Below, piece by piece: positions 5,395 to 14,261 of a stretch of DNA of 37,718 nucleotides. The DNA comes from a virus (taxonomy: Duplodnaviria > Heunggongvirae > Uroviricota > Caudoviricetes): the IMG/VR virus record IMGVR_UViG_2617270964_000009, one strand, 5' to 3'. Made by a program: the position numbers and the translations under genes. The notes under the pieces are model-generated. The model worked only from the letters and a program-made list of their open reading frames with translations. It was not told the origin of the DNA and searched no databases. Numbering within the stretch: the first letter of the stretch is position 1; the number at the start of each line of letters is the position of its first letter.

Positions 5395-5991
5395 TCAGTG
5401 GGAGTGGTGGCTGGAGTTTTCGCCATCAGACAGCATACTGCCCGTGACATGGGCATTCCCTTTAATCTCGATATTGCCATGGATGGTCGCGGTAACACCT
5501 TTACCACCAGAACCCGCCATGCCTCCTTCGTAAATCAGCTTTCCCCTGACACGCAGATCTCCGGTAAGTTCGGTTTCCGGTGCGTCAATCGTGGCTTTCT
5601 GTGTTTTCAATACCACATCAGCACCACACTCAATGACAATATGCTCAATGCCGCCCCGGATGGTCAGAGTGTGCGTCTTCCGGTTGTAGCTGTACTCTGC
5701 ACCATCAGCAAACCGGGTTCCCCGGATATTTTTGTCACTGAACGGTGGTTTATCGACGTCTGAATACACCGCGCCCAGAATAACACCATCCTCGCCGTTG
5801 GCATCGAGCAGCACCTCAACCTGCTCCCCCACGTCAGGGAGCCAGTAATCTTTGTTATCCTGGGTATTGCGCTGCAGCACGTTAAGCCAGTTTGTGCGCA
5901 GGTTATCGCATTCAGGCAGACGAACGCGGGCCTGAACCCTGTCGGCATCAACGGCACTGACCGTACCGACCTGACGAGTGACACCAGTCAT
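5395..5991 (-). CDS. Baseplate assembly protein V / spike (Mu gp45-like)
   Basis: 198 aa with a glycine-rich C-terminus (GGMAGSGGKGVTATIHGNIEIKGNAHVTG) typical of gpV spike proteins. Confidence 0.7.
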   Translation of the reverse strand: MTGVTRQVGTVSAVDADRVQARVRLPECDNLRTNWLNVLQRNTQDNKDYWLPDVGEQVEVLLDANGEDGVILGAVYSDVDKPPFSDKNIRGTRFADGAEYSYNRKTHTLTIRGGIEHIVIECGADVVLKTQKATIDAPETELTGDLRVRGKLIYEGGMAGSGGKGVTATIHGNIEIKGNAHVTGSMLSDGENSSHHSH

Positions 5992-7142
5992 TTTTTCTTC
6001 TCCTTAATCACCGTCGATGTACTGCCATCCGGGTGATAAACCGTGAGTTTCTGAGTTTTTTGTTTTTTCCCTCTTGTGACTGGCCCCCGTGCCACTTCCA
6101 GCTCTGTGGTGTAGCCGCTGTTACGGTCAAACGCATGGCGGGCAGTGGTTATGAGCCATGGCCCGGATAACTGCCCAAAACCCACCAGTTCAATTTTGTT
6201 GCCTGCTGTCAGTTGAGGTGTTCCCGTCAGCGTCAGGGAGCCGTTCTGCTGGTATTCGTTATGTCTGGCCAGTGCTGAATCCGCTTTAATCCGGGCACTG
6301 TCCGGGTCGCTGACGCGGCTGTTAACTTTAAGTGAGTCAGCGCTGGTAACCTTACCACCTTTGAGCTTTTTGTCGCTTTCACGGGTACCACCATCAGCTT
6401 CGTAGACGATCAGTTTTTTACTGCTGCTTTTCTGGTGTTTTACCTTTGCAGATTTATAGACCCGATTGATGGTGTCACGCAGGGAAAAGCGGGCCACATC
6501 CTGCGGTTTTAACTGCCTGACCGGCTCCTGACTGCGCAGTGTGGCCAGATGAGAAAAAATCAGCTGGTCACTGACCACTTTCACTGCATAACCATACTCG
6601 CTGGCCAGCCGGCGCAGAAAACCCACGTCGGTTTCAGCATACTGGGTCACCCGGTCGATTCTGATGGACTCAATGCTGCCCACCAGTTTCAGTCGGTGCT
6701 TTCTGGCAATCCGCCCCGCAACAGCTGCCAGCGTGGTGTTCTCAAAACCACGACTGGTTTTAGTCCGCAGGGCACTGTTAACCGAGGTGGCCACCCCACG
6801 GATAGAAACAACGGAAGCGGGCGAACTCACTTCGATCTCGTCTATAGAGAACGTACCGCAGGACAGCAGCTTCTCGCCCTGATAGCCCATTTTCAGCGTC
6901 AGCGTGTCACCCTTGCCCGGATACCACTTATCCAGCCAGCGGCCATCGGTGTCGTCCAGCTCCACCTCAATGGTATCGGACTCATTTTTGATGTTATCGC
7001 TCCAGGTCACACGGGTGACATAAGGCGCGATATCAGAGGTGATGTTTTTCTGCAGATACCACAGAGTGAACACCGGTGTCAGCACATCGCTGACGCCGGT
7101 TAACGCTGATGTGACTTGCGCAGTGCTGTTTATCTCAGCCAT
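5988..7142 (-). CDS. Tail protein, Mu gp44(P) / P2 gpD-like (baseplate hub)
   Basis: 384 aa, close to the Mu P and P2 D sizes; sits between the tape-measure and spike genes. Confidence 0.7.
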   Translation of the reverse strand: MAEINSTAQVTSALTGVSDVLTPVFTLWYLQKNITSDIAPYVTRVTWSDNIKNESDTIEVELDDTDGRWLDKWYPGKGDTLTLKMGYQGEKLLSCGTFSIDEIEVSSPASVVSIRGVATSVNSALRTKTSRGFENTTLAAVAGRIARKHRLKLVGSIESIRIDRVTQYAETDVGFLRRLASEYGYAVKVVSDQLIFSHLATLRSQEPVRQLKPQDVARFSLRDTINRVYKSAKVKHQKSSSKKLIVYEADGGTRESDKKLKGGKVTSADSLKVNSRVSDPDSARIKADSALARHNEYQQNGSLTLTGTPQLTAGNKIELVGFGQLSGPWLITTARHAFDRNSGYTTELEVARGPVTRGKKQKTQKLTVYHPDGSTSTVIKEKKK

Positions 7143-7345: not shown

Positions 7346-8226
7346 ACACTCCTCGTCAGTATTCTGGCGGCCATTGCACTTAATCCCGGAGACATGCGGT
7401 TGAATGCTGTGCCGGCGGCGTTAAGCTGCCCGGAAACGGTATCCAGAGCACCTGCAATATTTCTTTTGTCCACACCACTCAGCGCAGACTGTGCCTGCTG
7501 TACATACGTGGCTGCTTCGCTGGCTGTTCTGGCCAGACTGATGGCATCGGGCATGGATTCAGAGAGTGCGTTAAACGCCGGAACACTTTTCCCCAGAGCC
7601 CCGGAGATATTACCCAGTCCGCTCATCAGCCCCGGCACACGGGTCAGTGCGACAACGGGGTTATCCTTCATTTTCTGTGTCACCCGAACGGCGCTGATAG
7701 TGGTTTGGAGTACAGACTGCGCCTGTTTCGCATAGTTGACGCCGTTGCGGATGAACTGCGCCCCCCCTGAAGGTGAAGGAATGGCACCGGAGACCGCCCC
7801 GACACCCGGGAGCTTCGTGCGTATTGCCGGTGGTTGCAGAGGATTTTTCGGATCACCGGTGTATTCCCGGAGAGACACGGTGGCACTGACAGCCAGCACG
7901 TTACCGGTGCTGTCTGTCTGCTCGCTGGTTGCGGTCACATCGGTAATCACGAACCAGCCACGATAGTCACCGTTGCCGAAGACCAGCGCCAGTGCCTGAT
8001 GGGCTTTCATGGTTGTTCGCAGTCTCGCCAGCTCCACATCGGGTACACAATAATGCTGATGGAAGACCAGACTTATCTGGATTTCGTCCAGCCTGTCGCC
8101 GACGAACTGCAGGCCAGGCTTACCCCCGATGCGGGCATGCTCCGCATAATCGACGCCGAACGTGGCCTCGAAGCCGTCCCAGTAGGTAATCAGCTCAAAC
8201 TCAATATCACCCAGTACGGCAAACAT
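7342..8226 (-). CDS. Tail/DNA-circulation-like protein (Mu N / P2 U-position)
   Basis: 294-aa ORF directly downstream of the tape-measure gene with a 1-bp overlap; assigned by synteny only. Confidence 0.5.
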   Translation of the reverse strand: MFAVLGDIEFELITYWDGFEATFGVDYAEHARIGGKPGLQFVGDRLDEIQISLVFHQHYCVPDVELARLRTTMKAHQALALVFGNGDYRGWFVITDVTATSEQTDSTGNVLAVSATVSLREYTGDPKNPLQPPAIRTKLPGVGAVSGAIPSPSGGAQFIRNGVNYAKQAQSVLQTTISAVRVTQKMKDNPVVALTRVPGLMSGLGNISGALGKSVPAFNALSESMPDAISLARTASEAATYVQQAQSALSGVDKRNIAGALDTVSGQLNAAGTAFNRMSPGLSAMAARILTRSV

Positions 8227-11200
8227 CAGCGGTACTCCTTACGTTGTTTCTGAGCCAGCAGACGCTCCAGCATTTTTTCCAGCTCATGCAGACTCATATT
8301 CAGGGCACCAGTAAGTCCTGCAGGCGCTGTGGTTTCCCTGCCATTGAGGAAAAACTGAGGATTAAAGCTGACCTGGATACCACCAGACGTTCCACCGCCG
8401 GTTGCAGCTGCACCACGGCCTGAATATCCGGCAGCCAGGATTTCAGGCGAGGGGATACGGGGAACATCCGGTGTCATCTCATTTGCCAGACGTTGCCCTG
8501 GTAAAATCGATGCCCGGGTGGAGAGCGGAATAGCGGGCATGGAAGACAAACTATTGATTACGGCTCCGATCGCATTTTTAGCAGACGACATAAACCCATT
8601 GATATCGGGCAACGGCATACTGAAGCGAACACCTGAAGTGTTATCCCGTATTTCTGGCCCCTGAATGCTCACGGGCATTCTGGGGAGCAGTTCACTGGCC
8701 ATTCGCTGCCCGGCCAGAGCTGCAAGCGGAGTGGTCCGCTGCAGGCCAATGGCGACCCCCTGCGCGATATTGTCACCAAAGCCCATAAACACGCGGCTCG
8801 GCGAATGAATGCCCAGCTTTTCGCTGAACCAGCCACTGATGCTGTCACCCATTCCGGTTACACTGGATTTGAGCGACTCCCATTTGTTTTTGATACCGTT
8901 AATCAGACCATCGACAAGATGTCCACCGAAGTCGGTAAACTTTGCCGGCAGATCAACACCAAGATATTTCAGCGCAGCTGCAAAGGCTTTATAGAGCAGA
9001 CCTGCCGGCGACCAGTTAATCAGCAGCTTACCAGTTCCCGCGATACCGCCGTTAAAGGCTTCCTGAATGTCAGCCCAGCACTGTTTAAACCAGCTACTGA
9101 TGCTGTCACCCATTCCGGTTACACTGGATTTGAGCGACCCCCATTTGTTTTTGATACCGTTAATCAGACCGTCGATAAGATGGCCACCGAAGTCGGTGAA
9201 CTTTGCCGGCAGAGCAACGCCGAAATATTTCAGCGCAGCCGCAAAGGCTTTATAGAGCAGGCCTGCCGGCGACCAGTTAATCAGCAACTTACCGGTTCCC
9301 GCGATACCGCCGTTAAAGGCTTCCTGAATGTCAGCCCAGCACTGTTTAAACGGGCTACTGATGCTGTCACCCATTCCGGTTACACTGGATTTGAGCGACC
9401 CCCATTTGTTTTTGATACCGTTAATCAGACCGTCGACAAGATGGCCACCGAAGTCGGTGAACTTTGCCGGCAGAGCAACGCCGAAATATTTCAGCGCAGC
9501 CGCAAAGGCTTTATAGAGCAGGCCTGCCGGCGACCAGTTAATTAGCAACTTACCAGTTCCCACAATGCCGCCGTTAAAGGCTTCCTGAATGTCAGCCCAG
9601 CGCTGTTTAAACCAGCTACTGACTGCCCCCCAGTTGCGGTAGATAAGGTAAGCTGCTGCCGCGACAGCTGTGATAACGAGACCGATGGGATTCATCATCA
9701 GCGCACGTCCAATCCAGAGAACAGCACGTCCGGCGAGCATAATTCCGCGAACCAGCCCCCCGGAGAGCACGCCACTCAGTGTTCTGGCTCCTCTGGCGAC
9801 GGCGCTAAATCCGGTCACCAGCCAGCGGAGCTTACCGCCTTGCCCCAGTGCGAGCAACAGACGAAGCCAGTTGGTCCGAAGTAAAACAGCATTTTTCCAG
9901 ACACTTACAAAGGGGGAAATAAGAAGATTCAGCCCCAGTTTGAGACCAACAGTCGCTATCTTAATCGCAAGGAGCGCACTGATGAGCTTAAAAGCCCCAC
10001 TGACAAATTGCGGGTGAGTCGCTACCCAGTGTTTTGTCCCCTGAATGAGTGGGAGCAGTTCCTGAGTCAGAGAAATAAAAGATGGAGCTAATTGATCGCC
10101 CAGCGTAATTGCCAGATCGCGACTGCTGACCATAAGTGCTTTAGTGGCTTCAAGGGGAGATTTCAGCCGCTGATCATAAGCACTGGCAAGCAAATCGTTA
10201 TCCGCAGCCCTGAGAGCACCGGCGCGGATCTCGCGATATCTGTCCATGTTGGCCAGCATCGGGCGGATAAATGCCATGACCTGCATATCCGCGAACATAT
10301 CACCCAGACCAAAGTTTTTCGCCAGAGCCTGAAGTGCCTCATCTCTTGCCGTATCATTCTTTATTTTCATGGCGGATTTGAAGCCGGCCAGCGCTTCGGG
10401 GCTTTTGGCATTGAGGTAACGTTCTATAACACTCAACATCCCTTCAATCGGAGAGATCCCCGCAGCTTTATAACTCGCAATAGATCCCTGCAAATCAATA
10501 CCCAGATCAGCAAACTGTTTCTGAGTATCGCGGGCAAAAATTTTGGTAAGAAAGTTTTTAAAATTATTGGCTGCTTCGTCGGTGGAACCTGCACCGATTT
10601 TTGCTATCTGGAGACTGGCCCCGATTTCAGCAACAGCCTCTTTTCCACTGGCAATACCCGCCATCATTGGGGCCAGGGACTGCATCCACTTGACCTGATC
10701 CGGGATTTCAAATGACCCCTGGTCACCGGCATAAGCCATAATATTCTGAACGGCACCAAAATCTCTGGCCGCACCTTTCAGGGAGTTTTGCCAGACTGCG
10801 GCCACTTTTGCCCAGTCCTGAGCAGACGTGCGTGTTGCCGTTGCCGCGCGGGCAATATCCGGCATCAGAAAACCGATATCTGACACATTATCAATATTGT
10901 CGCTGATGAGTGAACCCACCGCCTCCTGCAGCTCATCCTGATACTGATTGTATTTAAGCGCCCAGCCTTTTATCTGTCCGGCAAGTGCATCCCGCGTTTT
11001 ATTGTCATATTTTGCGGTGATCGACATATCAATCATTTTGTCCTGAAAAGACATGGACTGCTGAACGGCAGGGGAAACCGTATGATAAACAGTCTGTGCC
11101 ATGCCATACGCTTCAATCCCCTGACCATACAGCGCCATGCGGTTAGCTTTCAGCGCATCACTGGTAGCGGATGCCGCTGACAGACGGCGCTGCTGGCGCT

Positions 11201-11438
11201 CAATTTGCTCCATGGTGCGGCTTACCCGCAGCAGCTCGCTGTTGAGATGCTGCATCCGGGAAGAACCCAGTTGACCATAACGTTCTGTTGCACGGGTTAA
11301 AGCGTTCTGACGTTCCTGCAGGCGGCGTGAGGTATCGCTCAGGGAATCAAGCGCACGGCGGGTACCGCTCATTGCAGAACGGAATGTGCTGCCAATCATC
11401 CCGCCGATAACAACGCCGACTGAAAACTGTCCCGACAT
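8226..11438 (-). CDS. Tail tape measure protein (1070 aa)
   Basis: Longest ORF in the tail module; has hydrophobic stretches and an internal triplicated 87-aa unit; lies downstream of the tail chaperone and tube genes. Confidence 0.85.
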   Translation of the reverse strand: MSGQFSVGVVIGGMIGSTFRSAMSGTRRALDSLSDTSRRLQERQNALTRATERYGQLGSSRMQHLNSELLRVSRTMEQIERQQRRLSAASATSDALKANRMALYGQGIEAYGMAQTVYHTVSPAVQQSMSFQDKMIDMSITAKYDNKTRDALAGQIKGWALKYNQYQDELQEAVGSLISDNIDNVSDIGFLMPDIARAATATRTSAQDWAKVAAVWQNSLKGAARDFGAVQNIMAYAGDQGSFEIPDQVKWMQSLAPMMAGIASGKEAVAEIGASLQIAKIGAGSTDEAANNFKNFLTKIFARDTQKQFADLGIDLQGSIASYKAAGISPIEGMLSVIERYLNAKSPEALAGFKSAMKIKNDTARDEALQALAKNFGLGDMFADMQVMAFIRPMLANMDRYREIRAGALRAADNDLLASAYDQRLKSPLEATKALMVSSRDLAITLGDQLAPSFISLTQELLPLIQGTKHWVATHPQFVSGAFKLISALLAIKIATVGLKLGLNLLISPFVSVWKNAVLLRTNWLRLLLALGQGGKLRWLVTGFSAVARGARTLSGVLSGGLVRGIMLAGRAVLWIGRALMMNPIGLVITAVAAAAYLIYRNWGAVSSWFKQRWADIQEAFNGGIVGTGKLLINWSPAGLLYKAFAAALKYFGVALPAKFTDFGGHLVDGLINGIKNKWGSLKSSVTGMGDSISSPFKQCWADIQEAFNGGIAGTGKLLINWSPAGLLYKAFAAALKYFGVALPAKFTDFGGHLIDGLINGIKNKWGSLKSSVTGMGDSISSWFKQCWADIQEAFNGGIAGTGKLLINWSPAGLLYKAFAAALKYLGVDLPAKFTDFGGHLVDGLINGIKNKWESLKSSVTGMGDSISGWFSEKLGIHSPSRVFMGFGDNIAQGVAIGLQRTTPLAALAGQRMASELLPRMPVSIQGPEIRDNTSGVRFSMPLPDINGFMSSAKNAIGAVINSLSSMPAIPLSTRASILPGQRLANEMTPDVPRIPSPEILAAGYSGRGAAATGGGTSGGIQVSFNPQFFLNGRETTAPAGLTGALNMSLHELEKMLERLLAQKQRKEYR
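8800..9625 (-). repeat. In-frame 261-bp tandem repeats (3 copies plus a partial) inside the tape measure gene
   Basis: gatgctgtcaccc recurs at 8838, 9099 and 9360 (period exactly 261 bp); the encoded 87-aa unit FKQCWADIQEAFNGGIAGTGKLLINWSPAGLLYKAFAAALKYFGVALPAKFTDFGGHL(V/I)DGLINGIKNKWGSLKSSVTGMGDSIS is repeated three times. Confidence 0.9.
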
Positions 11439-11513
11439 AGTGGTTAACCTCCGGGGAAGGTGAAAAGACGTGAGGGGATAACGCAGAACAGCCGCTACTG
11501 GCGGCTGTCTGTA

Positions 11514-11771
11514 TTATGATTTGTCGCCGTACTCGCTTTTTATTTGCTCTTCAGCCTGCTCCAGCCACATCTCCAGATCGTCAGTATCGAGGGCATCAAT
11601 CTCCCCCGGCTGAAACCGGAACCATCTCGCCAGCAGCCCCTGCGCCTGCGTCAGCGCCTTTGTCGCTCTCACCCATCCCCGTGATGAGCTGAAATCGTTT
11701 CTGTAACTGCAGGTAATCAGCCAGATCCATATTGTCGAGATCTTCCGGGAGAAGACCAGTACTGCGGGCAA
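11514..11771 (-). CDS. Tail assembly chaperone, downstream frame (+1 relative to 11596..11931): candidate frameshift product or frameshifted gene
   Basis: Only the C-terminal ~48 aa (KALTQAQGLLARWFRFQPGEIDALDTDDLEMWLEQAEEQIKSEYGDKS) look protein-like; the frame opens right after a TGA at 11772-11774. Confidence 0.4.
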   Translation of the reverse strand: MPAVLVFSRKISTIWIWLITCSYRNDFSSSRGWVRATKALTQAQGLLARWFRFQPGEIDALDTDDLEMWLEQAEEQIKSEYGDKS

Positions 11772-11931
11772 TCAGCGGTTCGTCCCAGTCTGCCGGGTTT
11801 TTGCTGATTTTGCGCACCTGCTTCAGGTCTTTTACCGTCAGGCGTTTCAGTTCAACCTGCTCAATTCTGGTGCCTGCAGCAGTGGTGAAGGGATAAGACA
11901 ATTTAAAAGTATCGGATGGGGTCTGTGACAT
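11596..11931 (-). CDS. Tail assembly chaperone, upstream frame (111 aa as read)
   Basis: Lies between the tube and tape-measure genes, the conserved chaperone position; N-terminal ~80 aa look protein-like, the last ~30 aa (GADAGAGAAGEMVPVSAGGD) look like out-of-frame readthrough. Confidence 0.5.
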   Translation of the reverse strand: MSQTPSDTFKLSYPFTTAAGTRIEQVELKRLTVKDLKQVRKISKNPADWDEPLIARSTGLLPEDLDNMDLADYLQLQKRFQLITGMGESDKGADAGAGAAGEMVPVSAGGD

Positions 11932-12006: not shown

Positions 12007-12022
12007 AGGGGCCGGAGCCCCT
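12007..12022 (-). terminator. Short GC hairpin (aggggc-cgga-gcccct) followed by a T-rich tract on the minus strand, downstream of the 93-aa ORF
   Basis: Perfect 6-bp stem with a 4-nt loop; possible attenuator/terminator inside the tail operon. Confidence 0.3.
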
Positions 12023-12028
12023 GTGATG

Positions 12029-12310
12029 TCAGCAAGTGCGAAACCCCTTGCAGTTACGCAGGAAAGCGATGAGAAGCGTCTTTCCCTCAGATTTGCCGGT
12101 GCCGGAGAACCAGTGGTCGGGAGGCTCCCATGCTTCAATCAAATCCGCCAGTTTGCGGGCCTTTGAACGTGTGCAGTCAATCGGGTCATTGGTTTTACGG
12201 GTATTAAAAAGGGTTTCCACCCCCGGAATATCAAGGAGGGTAAACCACGTACCATTTGACATGCCCAGTGCCGCACATCGTCTTCCTTTATCCGTCAGTT
12301 CAACACTCAT
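12029..12310 (-). CDS. Hypothetical protein (93 aa) between tail tube and chaperone
   Basis: ATG lies 2 bp after the tube stop with a GGGGG Shine-Dalgarno about 8 bp upstream; no recognisable motif. Confidence 0.4.
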   Translation of the reverse strand: MSVELTDKGRRCAALGMSNGTWFTLLDIPGVETLFNTRKTNDPIDCTRSKARKLADLIEAWEPPDHWFSGTGKSEGKTLLIAFLRNCKGFRTC

Positions 12311-12312
12311 CG

Positions 12313-12834
12313 TCAGCCCCCGATATTGATACGGTAGTCAGTCAGTTGATCAACACCGCCGACCCGGAAGATGTTGGCCAGATAGTCCAGTTGCAGCAGC
12401 TCTTCACCATCCAGTACCTGTCTGATATACGTGCAGGTGAAGCTACTGGAGAACTCGGCGTTCTCGTGCTGTTTGAACGTCCCCAGCGGGTTCTTCTTGA
12501 ACATAATCGTCAGGAAGGTGACCAGCGGGATTTCGTCAATCAGCCCCTGCGAGCTGTAGCGCTGGACGCTGGAACGACACTGCAGTGCCAGCGACCTGTA
12601 CGGGTTCGCGGCAGACAGCATCGCATCGCGGTAAAAGCTGTTCCATTTGATTTCGCCTTCCAGTTTGTCAAAACCAGCCGGGAGTTCCACCTTACCCACC
12701 ATCCCCAGCGCCTTGTGTTCCTGCATAATCATGGAGACATCGGGGAGTTTAACTTCCTCAGCCCGTCCCAGCAGGTTAGTACCATCCAGATAGATGTTGG
12801 CATTCGTGATGCGGTTTATCTCAATCTTTGACAT
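12313..12834 (-). CDS. Tail tube protein (Mu M / P2 FII-like)
   Basis: 173-aa ORF immediately downstream of the sheath gene; size and position are typical of contractile-tail tube proteins. Confidence 0.8.
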   Translation of the reverse strand: MSKIEINRITNANIYLDGTNLLGRAEEVKLPDVSMIMQEHKALGMVGKVELPAGFDKLEGEIKWNSFYRDAMLSAANPYRSLALQCRSSVQRYSSQGLIDEIPLVTFLTIMFKKNPLGTFKQHENAEFSSSFTCTYIRQVLDGEELLQLDYLANIFRVGGVDQLTDYRINIGG

Positions 12835-14261
12835 CAGTTGCCCCCTTTCAGGGTTAACAGGTATTCCGAGGTGATCTCAGTCTCAAACGTCAGTCGCTCC
12901 AGCGGCGGTGGTGGCGTATATTTGTAGCTCAGCAACAGGTGCCCGGCGGCCAGCTCCGTCTCCGGATTGCGGGCCGGATCAAACCAGCAACGGAAGCCCA
13001 GTACCGCACCATCACCAGTCATTTTGCGACCGTAGGCGTTGACCGACTCCGTCAGTGCATCAATCAGCGCCTGAGTAATCGGCATGTCGATGTACTGCTG
13101 GCTGAAATAACGAATGGACTCGTTGATCACATCACCGGTGCGGCGAACGTTCTCAAAGTTACGCATATGGGTGACCGTTGGCCATGCTGCCGTCCGGTTA
13201 CCCCACAGACGAAGGCCGCTGCCGTAACTGCTGAATACCGTGGTGATCCCCTGTTCGTTAAGCAGGTTTACCTCACTCTGCGGGTCATCAATCATCGCGG
13301 ACAGCTGGCGCTCCACGCCGGTGATCCCCAGAATCTCCTGATTGGAGGATGACCACCAGTAGCCCTTGTCCAGATCGACTCTGGCACGCAGACCTGCTGC
13401 ACGCTGGCTGAGCGGCTCCAGACGCTCTGTGTTTGTCACCGGGTCATATACCTTCACATGCGGATAGCACAGACGGACGCGGTCGGAGCTGGTATTGAAG
13501 TTGATGGTGCCTTCCGGGCCACGACCTGCCAGAGCCTGTGCAAAGGTGGTACCGACAGGCGCATCAATGTAGGTTACCGCGCCCAGCTTCTCTGCCATGG
13601 CGATAAGCTCAACTGCGACACTCTTCTGGGTGCAGAACACCGGCGCAATCAGAATTTTGGCGAAATAGCCGTACAGGTTGAAGCTGTCGTTAAGCAGCTT
13701 CATGCCGGTTCGGTTTCCGGCGCTGTTCACCCCGCCGATGATGTCCGCCGCAGTCACCTTCGACGGGTCCGCGTACTCATAGCTCACCTTCACGCTGCCA
13801 CCGGCCTCAATAGCCTTGCCCAGGTTCGTGAGCACCCCCGCCTGCGCATCAACACGGTAGTCCGTGTTCGCCGTGTGGGTGGTGCTGCCTTCACTGTTTT
13901 TCACCACCACATTAGCGACAACCGGATGCGCCAGTCTGGCCTGCCCTGTCGATTTGTCAAAGGTAACCACCTCATCCTCGATCGCCGTTTTATGTTTCGC
14001 CGGGTCGAGGACGTTAATGACCAGAACGGTGCCTGCACCATGGTCATAAATCGCATCCAGCGCCTGCGGAATGGTAAAGCCGGTGAACTGGCTGCCAAAT
14101 GCCGCTGCGTCTTTCTCAGACAGGCACTGTACCAGCGTATTGACATCCCCCATCGGGGCGGTACCAATCAGGCCAATAACGGCAGATTTCACCGTTTTAA
14201 CCGGGCGGGCTCCGTTTTCCACCTCAATGGTTTCGGGACCATGCAGATAGTTAGCTGCCAT
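12834..14261 (-). CDS. Tail sheath protein (Mu L / P2 FI-like)
   Basis: 475 aa; conserved sheath size and position upstream of the tube gene. Confidence 0.85.
   Translation of the reverse strand: MAANYLHGPETIEVENGARPVKTVKSAVIGLIGTAPMGDVNTLVQCLSEKDAAAFGSQFTGFTIPQALDAIYDHGAGTVLVINVLDPAKHKTAIEDEVVTFDKSTGQARLAHPVVANVVVKNSEGSTTHTANTDYRVDAQAGVLTNLGKAIEAGGSVKVSYEYADPSKVTAADIIGGVNSAGNRTGMKLLNDSFNLYGYFAKILIAPVFCTQKSVAVELIAMAEKLGAVTYIDAPVGTTFAQALAGRGPEGTINFNTSSDRVRLCYPHVKVYDPVTNTERLEPLSQRAAGLRARVDLDKGYWWSSSNQEILGITGVERQLSAMIDDPQSEVNLLNEQGITTVFSSYGSGLRLWGNRTAAWPTVTHMRNFENVRRTGDVINESIRYFSQQYIDMPITQALIDALTESVNAYGRKMTGDGAVLGFRCWFDPARNPETELAAGHLLLSYKYTPPPPLERLTFETEITSEYLLTLKGGN

What the first reader, a model, noticed from the sequence alone, without database searches (positions are those of the whole stretch)
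11514..11931. Tail assembly chaperone split across two frames (+1 relationship): programmed frameshift or frameshifted gene
In the conserved chaperone slot between tube and tape measure, the upstream frame looks protein-like for about 80 aa and then decays, while the +1 frame supplies a plausible acidic ~48-aa C-terminus. Tailed phages commonly make two chaperone isoforms by programmed frameshifting, usually -1; here the geometry needs +1, or a 1-nt indel near the GGGG run at about 11672-11680.
Basis: seen in the sequence. Interest (0 to 1): 0.45.

Follow-up and report, generated by a model that had tools for sequence, protein, structure and literature searches.

The report
Conserved +1 frameshift, tail chaperone gene

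Summary
On the minus strand, between the tail tube and tape measure genes, a 111-aa PF10109 chaperone ORF (11931..11596) is overlapped in the +1 frame by an ORF ending at 11514 that encodes a P2 GpE (E')-like peptide. The same two-frame layout is found in about 200 related loci (146 distinct sequences, from Enterobacterales to Burkholderia BcepMu). The locus itself is in 637 of 5,426 complete E. coli genomes, so it is not an indel artefact. Codon-position analysis shows selection on frame 0 up to Gly85 (11679..11677). From the next triplet, TGG (11675..11673), selection is on the +1 frame. The 0-frame tail is variable, ends at different places and is predicted disordered. The allowed shift windows of all relatives overlap in about 10 codons, and the only feature conserved there is an in-frame CGA_TTT_C (11697..11691), fixed even at synonymous sites. 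The best reading is a programmed +1 frameshift on UUU_C giving a 138-aa E+E'-like fusion. P2 uses -1 and Mu uses -2, so this is a new variant of a known device. No protein-level evidence was available.

The parts
11596..11931 (-). ORF1, the frame-0 tail assembly chaperone (P2 gpE-like), 111 aa including a dispensable tail
   Evidence: PF10109 at E=3.5e-22, residues 8-81. phrog_166 'tail protein' at E=5e-33. AlphaFold2 is confident for residues 4-88, with the last helix at 70-84.
11691..11697 (-). CGA_TTT_C, the best candidate +1 slippery site (E-site CGA, P-site UUU re-pairing with UUC)
   Evidence: One in-frame TTT followed by C lies in the permitted window of all 146 distinct +1-type sequences, and 142 of 146 have CGA before it. 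Of 22 conserved degenerate codon columns, only these two have fixed codons: CGA 47/48 and TTT 49/49. The site lies inside the intersection of permitted windows, from 3 codons before to 6 codons after TTT.
11676..11680 (-). G-run ACG_GGG_A (Gly85 codon plus the next base).
   Evidence: The frame-0 pattern ends at 11677 and the +1 pattern starts at 11675. The codon is not conserved as slippery: GGG, GGC, GGA, AGC, ACC, AAC in relatives. By Pfam coordinates it corresponds to the P2 junction position.
11514..11690 (-). +1-frame coding part of the long product (E'-like), 58 codons plus stop if the shift is at UUU_C, conserved from TGG at 11675..11673
   Evidence: The +1-frame peptide W..K.L..A..LLARWFRFQP(G/S)E(I/L)..L..(D/E)(D/E).E.WL..A..QI(K/R) is conserved from E. 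coli to Xenorhabdus, Dickeya, Ralstonia, Pseudomonas and BcepMu. PF06528 (P2 GpE) scores E=0.0017 here, and 9 of 11 relatives match it, best 3.6e-14. phrog_8286 scores E=8.7e-34.
11596..11676 (-). Frame-0 low-complexity tail (MGESDKGADAGAGAAGEMVPVSAGGD*), a by-product of the +1-frame coding
   Evidence: In relatives the tail is variable and stops at different places: 6, 10, 14, 24, 26, 28, 29 or 31 codons after TTT. A 90-aa allele ending ...GESN* is seen on 914 contigs. pLDDT is below 50. Nucleotide variation here follows +1-frame phase.
11603..11607 (-). Terminal G5 run (GCC_GGG_GGA_GAT_TGA), my first guess by analogy with Mu, now rejected as the shift site
   Evidence: The run lies inside the conserved E' domain (Q-P-G-E) and is AGT or AGC (Ser) in many relatives. 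In many relatives frame 0 stops upstream of it.
12313..12834 (-). Tail tube gene (context)
   Evidence: PF04985 at E=2.9e-53.
8226..11438 (-). Tape measure gene (context), the client of the chaperone
   Evidence: PF10145 at E=2e-20.

Best explanation
This is a tail assembly chaperone gene decoded in two ways. Shown: most ribosomes would read frame 0 and make the 111-aa gpE-like protein, a folded PF10109 domain of about 85 residues plus a meaningless disordered tail. Inferred: a minority shift +1 within window 11709..11676, continue in the overlapping frame to the TAA at 11516..11514, and make a 138-aa E+E'-like fusion whose C-terminal GpE-like domain is the conserved part of that frame. Established for lambda G/GT and P2 E/E+E', inferred here: the short form coats the tape measure protein, and the long form additionally recruits tube subunits. 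The most likely slip site (about 55-60% given that recoding occurs) is CGA_UUU_C at 11697..11691. There, peptidyl-tRNAPhe (anticodon GAA) on UUU would re-pair with the better-matched UUC. The rare I:A-wobble codon CGA in the E site could help, because weak E-site pairing favours +1 shifting. The predicted product is ...LQKRF|SSSRGWVRATKALTQAQGLLARWFRFQPGEIDAL.... No stimulatory RNA structure or Shine-Dalgarno-like element was found, so efficiency is probably low (a few per cent), which is all such chaperone pairs need.
For: Identity and position: PF10109 chaperone between the tube and tape measure genes, and a P2 GpE-like peptide in the +1 frame. Conservation of the split: 198 of about 206 related loci are +1-type, giving 146 distinct sequences from many genera including BcepMu, and the locus is in 637/5,426 E. 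coli genomes. Frame-specific selection: variable sites by frame-0 codon position are 10/24, 7/24, 20/24 upstream of 11677 and 25/27, 16/27, 13/27 in the overlap. The overlap pattern matches the +1-only region downstream, 24/26, 14/26, 15/26. No conserved start codon follows the switch; the codon after Trp is GTG, GCA, CTG, ATC or TTG. Site: the permitted windows intersect from 3 codons before to 6 codons after a TTT_C present in all 146 sequences. CGA and TTT are the only codon-invariant columns among 22 conserved degenerate ones, while other conserved Arg columns use CGC or CGT. CGA is the rarest Arg codon in the window, and in-frame CGA_TTT_C occurs nowhere else in ORFs of at least 200 aa. 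The -1-type relatives (P2 with T_TTT_TTG, Pasteurella phage with A_AAG_GGA) lack this Phe and have their own heptamers. Literature: tailed phages use -1, -2 or +1 for this device and Mu uses -2 (PMC5009743). UUU is +1 shift-prone in E. coli argI, and weak E-site pairing raises +1 frameshifting (PMC2790909). UUU is among the most slippery P-site codons in the prfB context, and several hundred +1 chaperone frameshifts are annotated in actinophages (PMC10885494). P2 E+E' also lacks a downstream structure (PMC3091744).
Against: There is no protein, ribosome-profiling or reporter evidence, so the fusion is inferred. UUU_C alone is common: 53 in-frame cases in the long ORFs of this window, a count that includes spurious antisense ORFs. 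The 0-frame A-site codon (CAG or CAA) is not rare, and no Shine-Dalgarno-like or structural stimulator was found, so it is unclear what makes this site special beyond CGA. Protein-level selection stays on frame 0 for the 5 codons after TTT (Q-x-[ILV]-[TIV]-G) and switches only at Gly85|Trp. The AlphaFold helix runs to residue 84, and P2's junction maps to the end of the domain. A shift at UUU_C would therefore replace the last helical turn with a variable linker, which fits a junction at Gly85 somewhat better. The invariance of CGA_TTT_C could in principle reflect something other than slippage.
Confidence: 0.72

Rival explanations
1. Recoding happens, but at the first reader's G-run. Either a +1 slip of tRNAGly on GGG_A (11679..11676), or a Mu-style -2 event there, joins the complete chaperone domain (to Gly85) to Trp and the E' domain. 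The products would be ...FQLITG|WVR... or ...FQLITGG|WVR....
For: The selected frame switches exactly here. The predicted last helix ends at residue 84. P2's verified junction maps to the same end of the PF10109 profile. 16 of 18 non-redundant close relatives have GGG_N, which keeps two of three base pairs after a +1 slip. Mu's verified -2 site is also a G-run.
Against: In relatives the codon is not conserved and is often unable to re-pair: GGC_C, GGA_T, AGC_A, ACC_G, AAC_G. Its third base varies freely (GGG 35, GGC 4, GGA 4). The 0-frame A-site codon is a common AUG, CUG or GUG. -2 re-pairing (GGG onto CGG or CUG) is poor and not conserved.
Confidence: 0.17
2. There is no frameshift. The +1 ORF is translated on its own from an internal start (for example GTG at 11672 or CTG at 11654, as gene callers and PGAP annotate) to give a separate 46-52-aa 'GpE family' protein.
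For: PGAP and PHROGs treat it as a separate small gene. BcepMu and Pseudomonas phage records also annotate a separate small CDS.
Against: No start codon is conserved at or after the point where +1-frame conservation begins, and the Trp and upstream residues are conserved before any possible start. No Shine-Dalgarno sequence is conserved. In the homologous P2 system E' is made only as the E+E' fusion. The E' domain has no way of binding the tape measure protein without the chaperone part (lambda G/GT paradigm, established knowledge).
Confidence: 0.06
3. The gene is simply broken, through a mutational or sequencing 1-nt indel, in a decaying prophage, and the ancestral state is a single ORF.
For: A few single-ORF versions exist: P0001-4, P0008, P0012, P0095, and L020, L035, L203.
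Against: These versions change frame at different places: the G5 run, after GESNQ, codon ~42, upstream of CGA_TTT, and at the 0-frame stop. That is the pattern expected of independent errors or variants, and several would destroy the conserved E' N-terminus. The two-frame state is seen on hundreds to about 1000 contigs per cluster and in distant genera, with purifying selection in both parts.
Confidence: 0.02
4. The frame change is made at the RNA level by transcriptional slippage of RNA polymerase on a homopolymer run.
For: G-runs are present in this particular sequence (G4 at 11680..11677, G5 at 11607..11603), and G4 variants of the G5 run turn up in read-derived assemblies.
Against: Neither run is conserved. 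The G5 run lies inside the E' domain. Known slippage sites need longer runs (established knowledge), and the conserved TTT is only 3 nt.
Confidence: 0.02

Closest known systems
Phage P2 gpE / gpE+E' (PF10109 + PF06528), -1 frameshift at T_TTT_TTG
   Same: Same gene position (tube, then E/E', then tape measure). Same N-terminal chaperone family. A homologous C-terminal GpE-like extension (FHWPPSEL..M...EL..W versus FRFQPGEI..L...DL..W). Similar product sizes (91/142 aa versus 111/138 aa). No downstream RNA structure in either.
   Different: The direction is +1, not -1. There is no slippery heptamer. The candidate site is CGA_UUU_C, about 5 codons before the domain end. Frame 0 runs on for 31 codons over more than half of E', whereas P2's frame 0 stops 5 codons after the shift. 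The window's own match to PF06528 is below Pfam's cutoff (18.3 versus 23 bits).
Phage Mu gp41 / gp41-extended, experimentally verified -2 frameshift (Xu, Hendrix & Duda 2004)
   Same: Same frame geometry (+1 is equivalent to -2). Same gene slot in a transposable myovirus. Weak PF10109 relationship.
   Different: Mu gp41 belongs to PF23746 and its extension is unrelated to GpE. Mu's site is a G5 run, CGG_GGG_CGA, allowing perfect -2 re-pairing. No such conserved run exists here.
Lambda gpG / gpGT tail assembly chaperone pair (-1 at G_GGA_AAG)
   Same: Same logic: two proteins sharing an N-terminus, encoded just upstream of the tape measure gene, with the long form rare (PMC5009743).
   Different: No sequence similarity, the direction is -1, and lambda is a siphovirus.
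+1 shift-prone sites in E. coli: prfB CUU_UGA_C and argI UUU_UAU
   Same: A P-site tRNA can re-pair one base downstream, and UUU is a documented +1-prone codon. An E-site weak-pairing effect is documented (PMC2790909; PMC10885494).
   Different: [quoted passage not shown]
Burkholderia phage BcepMu gp41/gp42/gp43 as annotated in GenBank AY539836
   Same: Same lineage (PhiKM, 98.9% identical to the window, is filed under Bcepmuvirus). gp41 is PF10109, and the E'-like peptide is in the +1 frame with an in-frame TCC_TTT_CGC.
   Different: The record calls gp42 (the E' ORF from an internal ATG) the 'lambda G' equivalent and places the ribosomal slippage between gp42 and a low-complexity gp43. The comparative data here indicate the pair is gp41 and gp41-42.

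Membership tests
Frameshifted tail assembly chaperone pair (lambda G/GT paradigm) | Encoded between the major tail/tube gene and the tape measure gene | tested here: met
   Tube 12834..12313, ORF pair 11931..11514, tape measure 11438..8226.
Frameshifted tail assembly chaperone pair (lambda G/GT paradigm) | Second ORF overlaps the first in another frame, has no start of its own, and is conserved as protein | tested here: met
   The +1 frame is conserved from Trp at 11675 with no conserved start codon.
Frameshifted tail assembly chaperone pair (lambda G/GT paradigm) | A slippery sequence in the overlap | tested here: inconclusive
   CGA_TTT_C is conserved in 146/146 (TTT_C) and 142/146 (CGA) distinct sequences and at synonymous sites. 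It is a candidate only, and it has no known stimulator.
Frameshifted tail assembly chaperone pair (lambda G/GT paradigm) | Both short and long proteins are made, with the long one at a low ratio, and both are needed for tail assembly | not testable with these tools
   Needs western blot, mass spectrometry or genetics.
P2 E / E+E' family | N-terminal PF10109 (Phage_TAC_7) domain | tested here: met
   E=3.5e-22, 78.7 bits against a cutoff of 25.
P2 E / E+E' family | C-terminal extension of the PF06528 (Phage_P2_GpE) family | tested here: inconclusive
   The window peptide scores 18.3 bits (E=0.0017), below the 23-bit cutoff. However, 9 of 11 aligned relatives match, best E=3.6e-14, and BLASTP against P2 E' aligns the core motif.
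P2 E / E+E' family | -1 frameshift on T_TTT_TTG | tested here: not met
   The E' frame is +1 and no such heptamer exists.
Mu gp41 -2 frameshift | Gp41_Mu domain (PF23746) | tested here: not met
   ORF1 matches only PF10109. Mu gp41 matches PF23746 at E=9e-35.
Mu gp41 -2 frameshift | G-run permitting -2 re-pairing of tRNAGly at a conserved place | tested here: not met
   The G4 and G5 runs of the window are not conserved in relatives.
prfB-type +1 programmed frameshift | P-site codon that re-pairs in the +1 frame | tested here: met
   UUU to UUC for tRNAPhe(GAA), read from the sequence.
prfB-type +1 programmed frameshift | Stop or rare codon in the 0-frame A site, and a Shine-Dalgarno-like element about 3 nt upstream | tested here: not met
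   The A-site codon is CAG or CAA in 135/146 sequences. The upstream sequence (CAGAAA, GCAAAA) is not purine-rich GGAGG-like and varies.

The most novel reading that the evidence does not exclude
BcepMu-type prophages, present in about 12% of complete E. coli genomes and in many other Proteobacteria, may express their P2-E/E'-homologous chaperone pair through a minimal, structure-independent +1 frameshift signal, CGA_UUU_C (weak I:A E-site codon plus tRNAPhe re-pairing). This signal would have replaced the -1 heptamer of P2 and would leave a ~90-nt overlap in which the 0-frame continuation is evolutionary junk. It would be a defined natural +1 signal of a type not catalogued for Gram-negative phage chaperones. 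It would also mean that hundreds of database records are mis-annotated, including BcepMu's own annotation and PGAP's 'internal stop' pseudogene calls.
Probability: 0.45. Interest if true: 0.55.

Novelty: new variant of a known kind. Interest (0 to 1): 0.42.

Why it matters
Frameshifted tail chaperone pairs are textbook, so the existence of one here is ordinary. Three things are less ordinary.

1. Homologues of the P2 E/E' pair use the opposite direction (+1 instead of -1) throughout a large, widespread prophage lineage.
2. The only conserved candidate signal is a very simple tri-codon, CGA_UUU_C, with no stop codon, rare A-site codon or RNA structure. If confirmed, this would be a useful natural model for low-level +1 slippage and for the role of E-site I:A wobble.
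3. Current annotation handles the locus badly. It appears as two unrelated small genes, as a 'frameshifted' or 'internal stop' pseudogene, or with slippage placed at the wrong ORF pair in BcepMu. A defined rule would correct many records and help frameshift predictors, which perform poorly on +1 cases.

Tried and rejected
1. My first hypothesis was a Mu-like shift on the terminal G5 run GCC_GGG_GGA_GAT_TGA (11607..11603). I rejected it because the run is Ser (AGT or AGC) in many relatives and lies inside the conserved E' domain (Q-P-G/S-E). In many relatives, and in the commonest E. coli allele (90 aa, 914 contigs), frame 0 stops upstream of it.

2. Conserved RNA structure downstream of the site. 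RNAalifold on 11 diverse sequences gave -4.2 kcal/mol and no covarying pair.

3. -2 slippage. No position in the permitted window allows conserved -2 re-pairing.

4. Translational bypass from UUU (11694) to the second CGG_UUU_CAG (11618..11610, +1 frame). Rejected because the skipped +1-frame codons are under protein-level selection.

5. Using single-ORF homologues to locate the junction. They fuse at different points and look like independent indels or assembly errors. L191, first scored as -1, was a script mis-call and is +1-type.

6. NCBIfam gave no hit for either ORF.

7. Literature searches found no description of a +1 shift in P2-E/E'-type or BcepMu-type chaperones. The original P2 (Christie 2002), Mu (Xu 2004), BcepMu (Summer 2004) and UUU-pyrimidine (Schwartz & Curran 1997) papers are not in the held library, so prior mention there cannot be excluded.

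Full report
WHAT IS THERE. All genes in this part of the window run on the minus strand. In order they are:
- tail sheath (14261..12834, PF04984/PF17482);
- tail tube (12834..12313, PF04985);
- a 93-aa ORF of unknown function (12310..12029);
- the ORF pair in question;
- a 1070-aa tape measure protein (11438..8226, PF10145).

ORF1 (11931..11596, 111 aa, ATG preceded by AGGAG) matches Pfam PF10109 'Phage tail assembly chaperone proteins, E, or 41 or 14' over residues 8-81 (E=3.5e-22). A second frame is open from 11771 to the TAA at 11516..11514. Its codons begin one base downstream of ORF1's, so it is the +1 frame, with the same geometry as -2.

WHAT THE ELEMENT IS. The region is 98.9% identical to Escherichia phage PhiKM, which is filed under Bcepmuvirus and annotates only 'tail protein E' here. 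The locus occurs in 637 of 5,426 complete E. coli genomes. PGAP calls ORF1 'phage tail assembly protein' and sometimes calls the +1 ORF a separate 'GpE family phage tail protein'.

IS IT A BROKEN GENE? No. I collected about 206 related loci from species-representative genomes and viral contigs plus annotated phages. In 198 of them the E'-like peptide lies in the +1 frame relative to the chaperone ORF. These comprise 146 distinct sequences from Escherichia, Salmonella, Klebsiella, Pantoea, Mixta, Brenneria, Pectobacterium, Dickeya, Serratia, Xenorhabdus, Photorhabdus, Lonsdalea, Arsenophonus, Crenobacter, a Ralstonia phage, a Pseudomonas phage and BcepMu itself. Only the Pasteurella phage AFS-2018a has it in -1, with a canonical A_AAG_GGA heptamer, as in P2. 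Single-ORF versions are rare: database proteins P0001-4, P0008, P0012 and P0095, and loci L020, L035 and L203. They change frame at different points: the G5 run, after GESNQ, near codon 42, upstream of CGA_TTT, and at the 0-frame stop. Several would delete the conserved start of E'. This is the signature of independent indels or assembly errors, not of an ancestral single ORF. By contrast, the two-frame alleles are seen on 487, 914 and about 1000 contigs per cluster.

WHERE THE SELECTED FRAME CHANGES. A gap-free DNA alignment of 27 relatives (18 non-redundant) shows frame-0 third positions carrying the variation up to the Gly85 codon, GGG at 11679..11677. Variable sites by frame-0 codon position there are 10/24, 7/24 and 20/24. 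From the very next triplet, TGG at 11675..11673, variation sits at frame-0 first positions, which are +1-frame third positions: 25/27, 16/27, 13/27. That is the same pattern as downstream of the 0-frame stop, where only +1 can be coding: 24/26, 14/26, 15/26.

The +1-frame peptide W..K.L..A..LLARWFRFQP(G/S)E(I/L)..L..(D/E)(D/E).E.WL..A..QI(K/R) is conserved out to relatives whose chaperone is only 32-55% identical. The 0-frame residues over the same DNA are a variable Gly/Ala/Ser/Asp-rich string that stops 6 to 31 codons after Phe80. The commonest E. coli allele stops frame 0 at ...ITGMGESN* (90 aa, 914 contigs). AlphaFold2 on ORF1 gives a confident fold ending in a helix at residues 70-84 and pLDDT <50 for residues 89-111.

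The +1 peptide hits Pfam PF06528 (P2 GpE) weakly here (E=0.0017, 18.3 bits, below the 23-bit cutoff). However, 9 of 11 aligned relatives hit it, the best at 3.6e-14. BLASTP aligns its core with P2 E' (LARWFRFQPGEIDALDTDDLEMWLEQA versus VAVIFHWPPSELYPMSLTELITWREKA). No start codon is conserved at or after the switch. The E' domain must therefore be reached from ORF1 by recoding, as in P2, where E+E' is made by a verified -1 shift at T_TTT_TTG (PMC3091744).

WHERE THE SHIFT OCCURS. My first guess, by analogy with Mu's verified -2 site CGG_GGG_CGA, was the G5 run just before the ORF1 stop (11607..11603). It is wrong. The run lies inside the conserved E' domain, is AGT or AGC in many relatives, and is downstream of the 0-frame stop in many others.

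Each relative allows a shift only between the last stop in the E' frame and the stop of frame 0. The intersection of these windows over 146 distinct sequences runs from 3 codons before to 6 codons after a single in-frame TTT followed by C, which every one of them has. The contexts are:
- CGA_TTT_CAG, 113 sequences;
- CGA_TTT_CAA, 22;
- CGA_TTT_CGC, 5;
- six singletons.

In a set of 49 sequences thinned to <95% nucleotide identity, 22 amino-acid columns are conserved and codon-degenerate. Only two of these have fixed codons: Arg(-1) is CGA in 47/48 and Phe(0) is TTT in 49/49. Other conserved Arg columns use CGC or CGT, and CGA is the rarest Arg codon in the window. In the window the motif is at 11697..11691. 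BcepMu has TCC_TTT_CGC in the same place. The -1-type relatives (P2, Pasteurella phage) do not have this Phe.

A +1 slip of peptidyl-tRNAPhe (anticodon GAA) from UUU to the better-matched UUC is mechanistically simple. UUU is documented as +1-prone in E. coli (argI UUU_UAU; prfB randomisation), and weak E-site pairing is documented to raise +1 shifting (PMC2790909; PMC10885494). That CGA is read through an I:A wobble is established knowledge that I recall rather than something tested here. The predicted long product is 138 aa...LQKRF|SSSRGWVRATKALTQAQGLLARWFRFQPGEIDALDTDDLEMWLEQAEEQIKSEYGDKS.

THE MAIN UNCERTAINTY. The protein-level switch at Gly85|Trp is five codons downstream of TTT. The predicted last helix runs to residue 84, and P2's junction maps to the end of the PF10109 profile, corresponding to our residues ~83-85. 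But that codon is GGG, GGC, GGA, AGC, ACC or AAC in relatives, varies at its third base, is followed by common codons, and offers no conserved re-pairing for +1 or -2.

The two views can be reconciled. The five codons after TTT are read in both frames but are constrained only by the abundant short product. The long product carries a variable linker (SSSRG, SKSLG, NPCLA...) before its first conserved residue, Trp. I put about 55-60% on UUU_C and about 20% on the G-run, given that recoding occurs. No downstream RNA structure is conserved, and none is known for P2 E+E' either. TTT_C by itself is common in this window's ORFs, so efficiency is probably low. That is what this class of chaperone pairs requires (lambda about 30:1; PMC5009743).

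COMPARISON WITH WHAT IS KNOWN. Functionally this is the lambda G/GT or P2 E/E+E' device. By sequence it belongs with P2 E/E' (PF10109 plus a GpE-like extension), but it fails that family's defining -1 T_TTT_TTG feature. It shares Mu's +1/-2 geometry, but not Mu's protein family (PF23746) or its G-run. +1 shifts in tail chaperones are known elsewhere: haloarchaeal HSTV-2 (PMC5009743) and about 350 annotated in actinophages (PMC10885494). The KS10 authors reported finding no frameshift site in a Mu-like Burkholderia phage with a FluMu gp41-like domain (PMC2628397). BcepMu's GenBank record places the slippage between gp42 and gp43 rather than between gp41 and gp42.

VERDICT. The programmed-frameshift reading is supported and the indel reading is refuted. 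This is a new variant (+1, distinct signal, long junk overlap) of a well-known kind, of moderate interest. Everything about expression is inferred from sequence, so the decisive tests are a tagged-construct western blot, junction-peptide mass spectrometry, and synonymous TTT->TTC and CGA->CGT mutants.

Noticed in passing
window 8827-9622 (inside the tape measure gene 11438..8226, minus strand): There is a 261-bp tandem repeat of 3.0 copies at 95% identity, giving three 87-aa protein repeats. Relatives have shorter tape measure genes (2466 and 2691 nt versus 3213 nt here), so tail length may vary by repeat copy number. PhiKM's gene is 'disrupted by a sequencing gap', probably at this repeat.
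   Followed up: partly
window 12007-12022, minus strand: A terminator-like GC hairpin, AGGGGCTCCGGCCCCT followed by TCTTCTT, sits between the 93-aa ORF and the chaperone start. It may be a partial terminator that lowers chaperone and tape measure expression relative to sheath and tube.
   Followed up: no
window 11488-11508: A perfect 9-bp palindromic hairpin (ACAGCCGC-TAC-TGGCGGCTGT) lies in the 75-nt gap between the E' stop codon and the tape measure start.
   Followed up: no
L207 (BcepMu AY539836) 5603-6364: The published BcepMu annotation calls gp42 (the E'-like ORF from an internal ATG) the lambda G equivalent, and a low-complexity gp43 its slippage product. gp41 is the PF10109 chaperone, and gp42's frame is +1 to it with an in-frame TCC_TTT_CGC, so the real pair is probably gp41 and gp41-42.
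   Followed up: partly
L003 (E. coli EcPF7 NZ_CP054232) 1560-1895; protein P0027: PGAP flags the chaperone as a pseudogene with an 'internal stop'. That 90-aa allele (...GESN*) is the commonest form (914 contigs) and only truncates the dispensable 0-frame tail, so this is probably a false pseudogene call.
   Followed up: partly
window 12029-12310, minus strand: An extra 93-aa ORF (phrog_1239 E=5e-48; weak DUF7739) is inserted between the tube and chaperone genes. It is absent from P2 and from the Salmonella relative L006.
   Followed up: no
window 11689-11697 and 11610-11618, minus strand: The nonamer CGA_TTT_CAG (R-F-Q in frame 0) recurs as CGG_TTT_CAG (R-F-Q in the +1 frame, within ARWFRFQP) 79 nt downstream. 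I considered a translational bypass between them and rejected it. The repeat is otherwise unexplained.
   Followed up: partly
L203 versus L191 (IMG/VR contigs from sister metagenomes 3300002920 and 3300002925): These are near-identical loci. One has the usual +1 split (...ACC_GAT_TGA). The other has a 1-nt difference at the 0-frame stop that fuses the chaperone and E' into a single ORF. This is either a real fused variant or an assembly error.
   Followed up: partly
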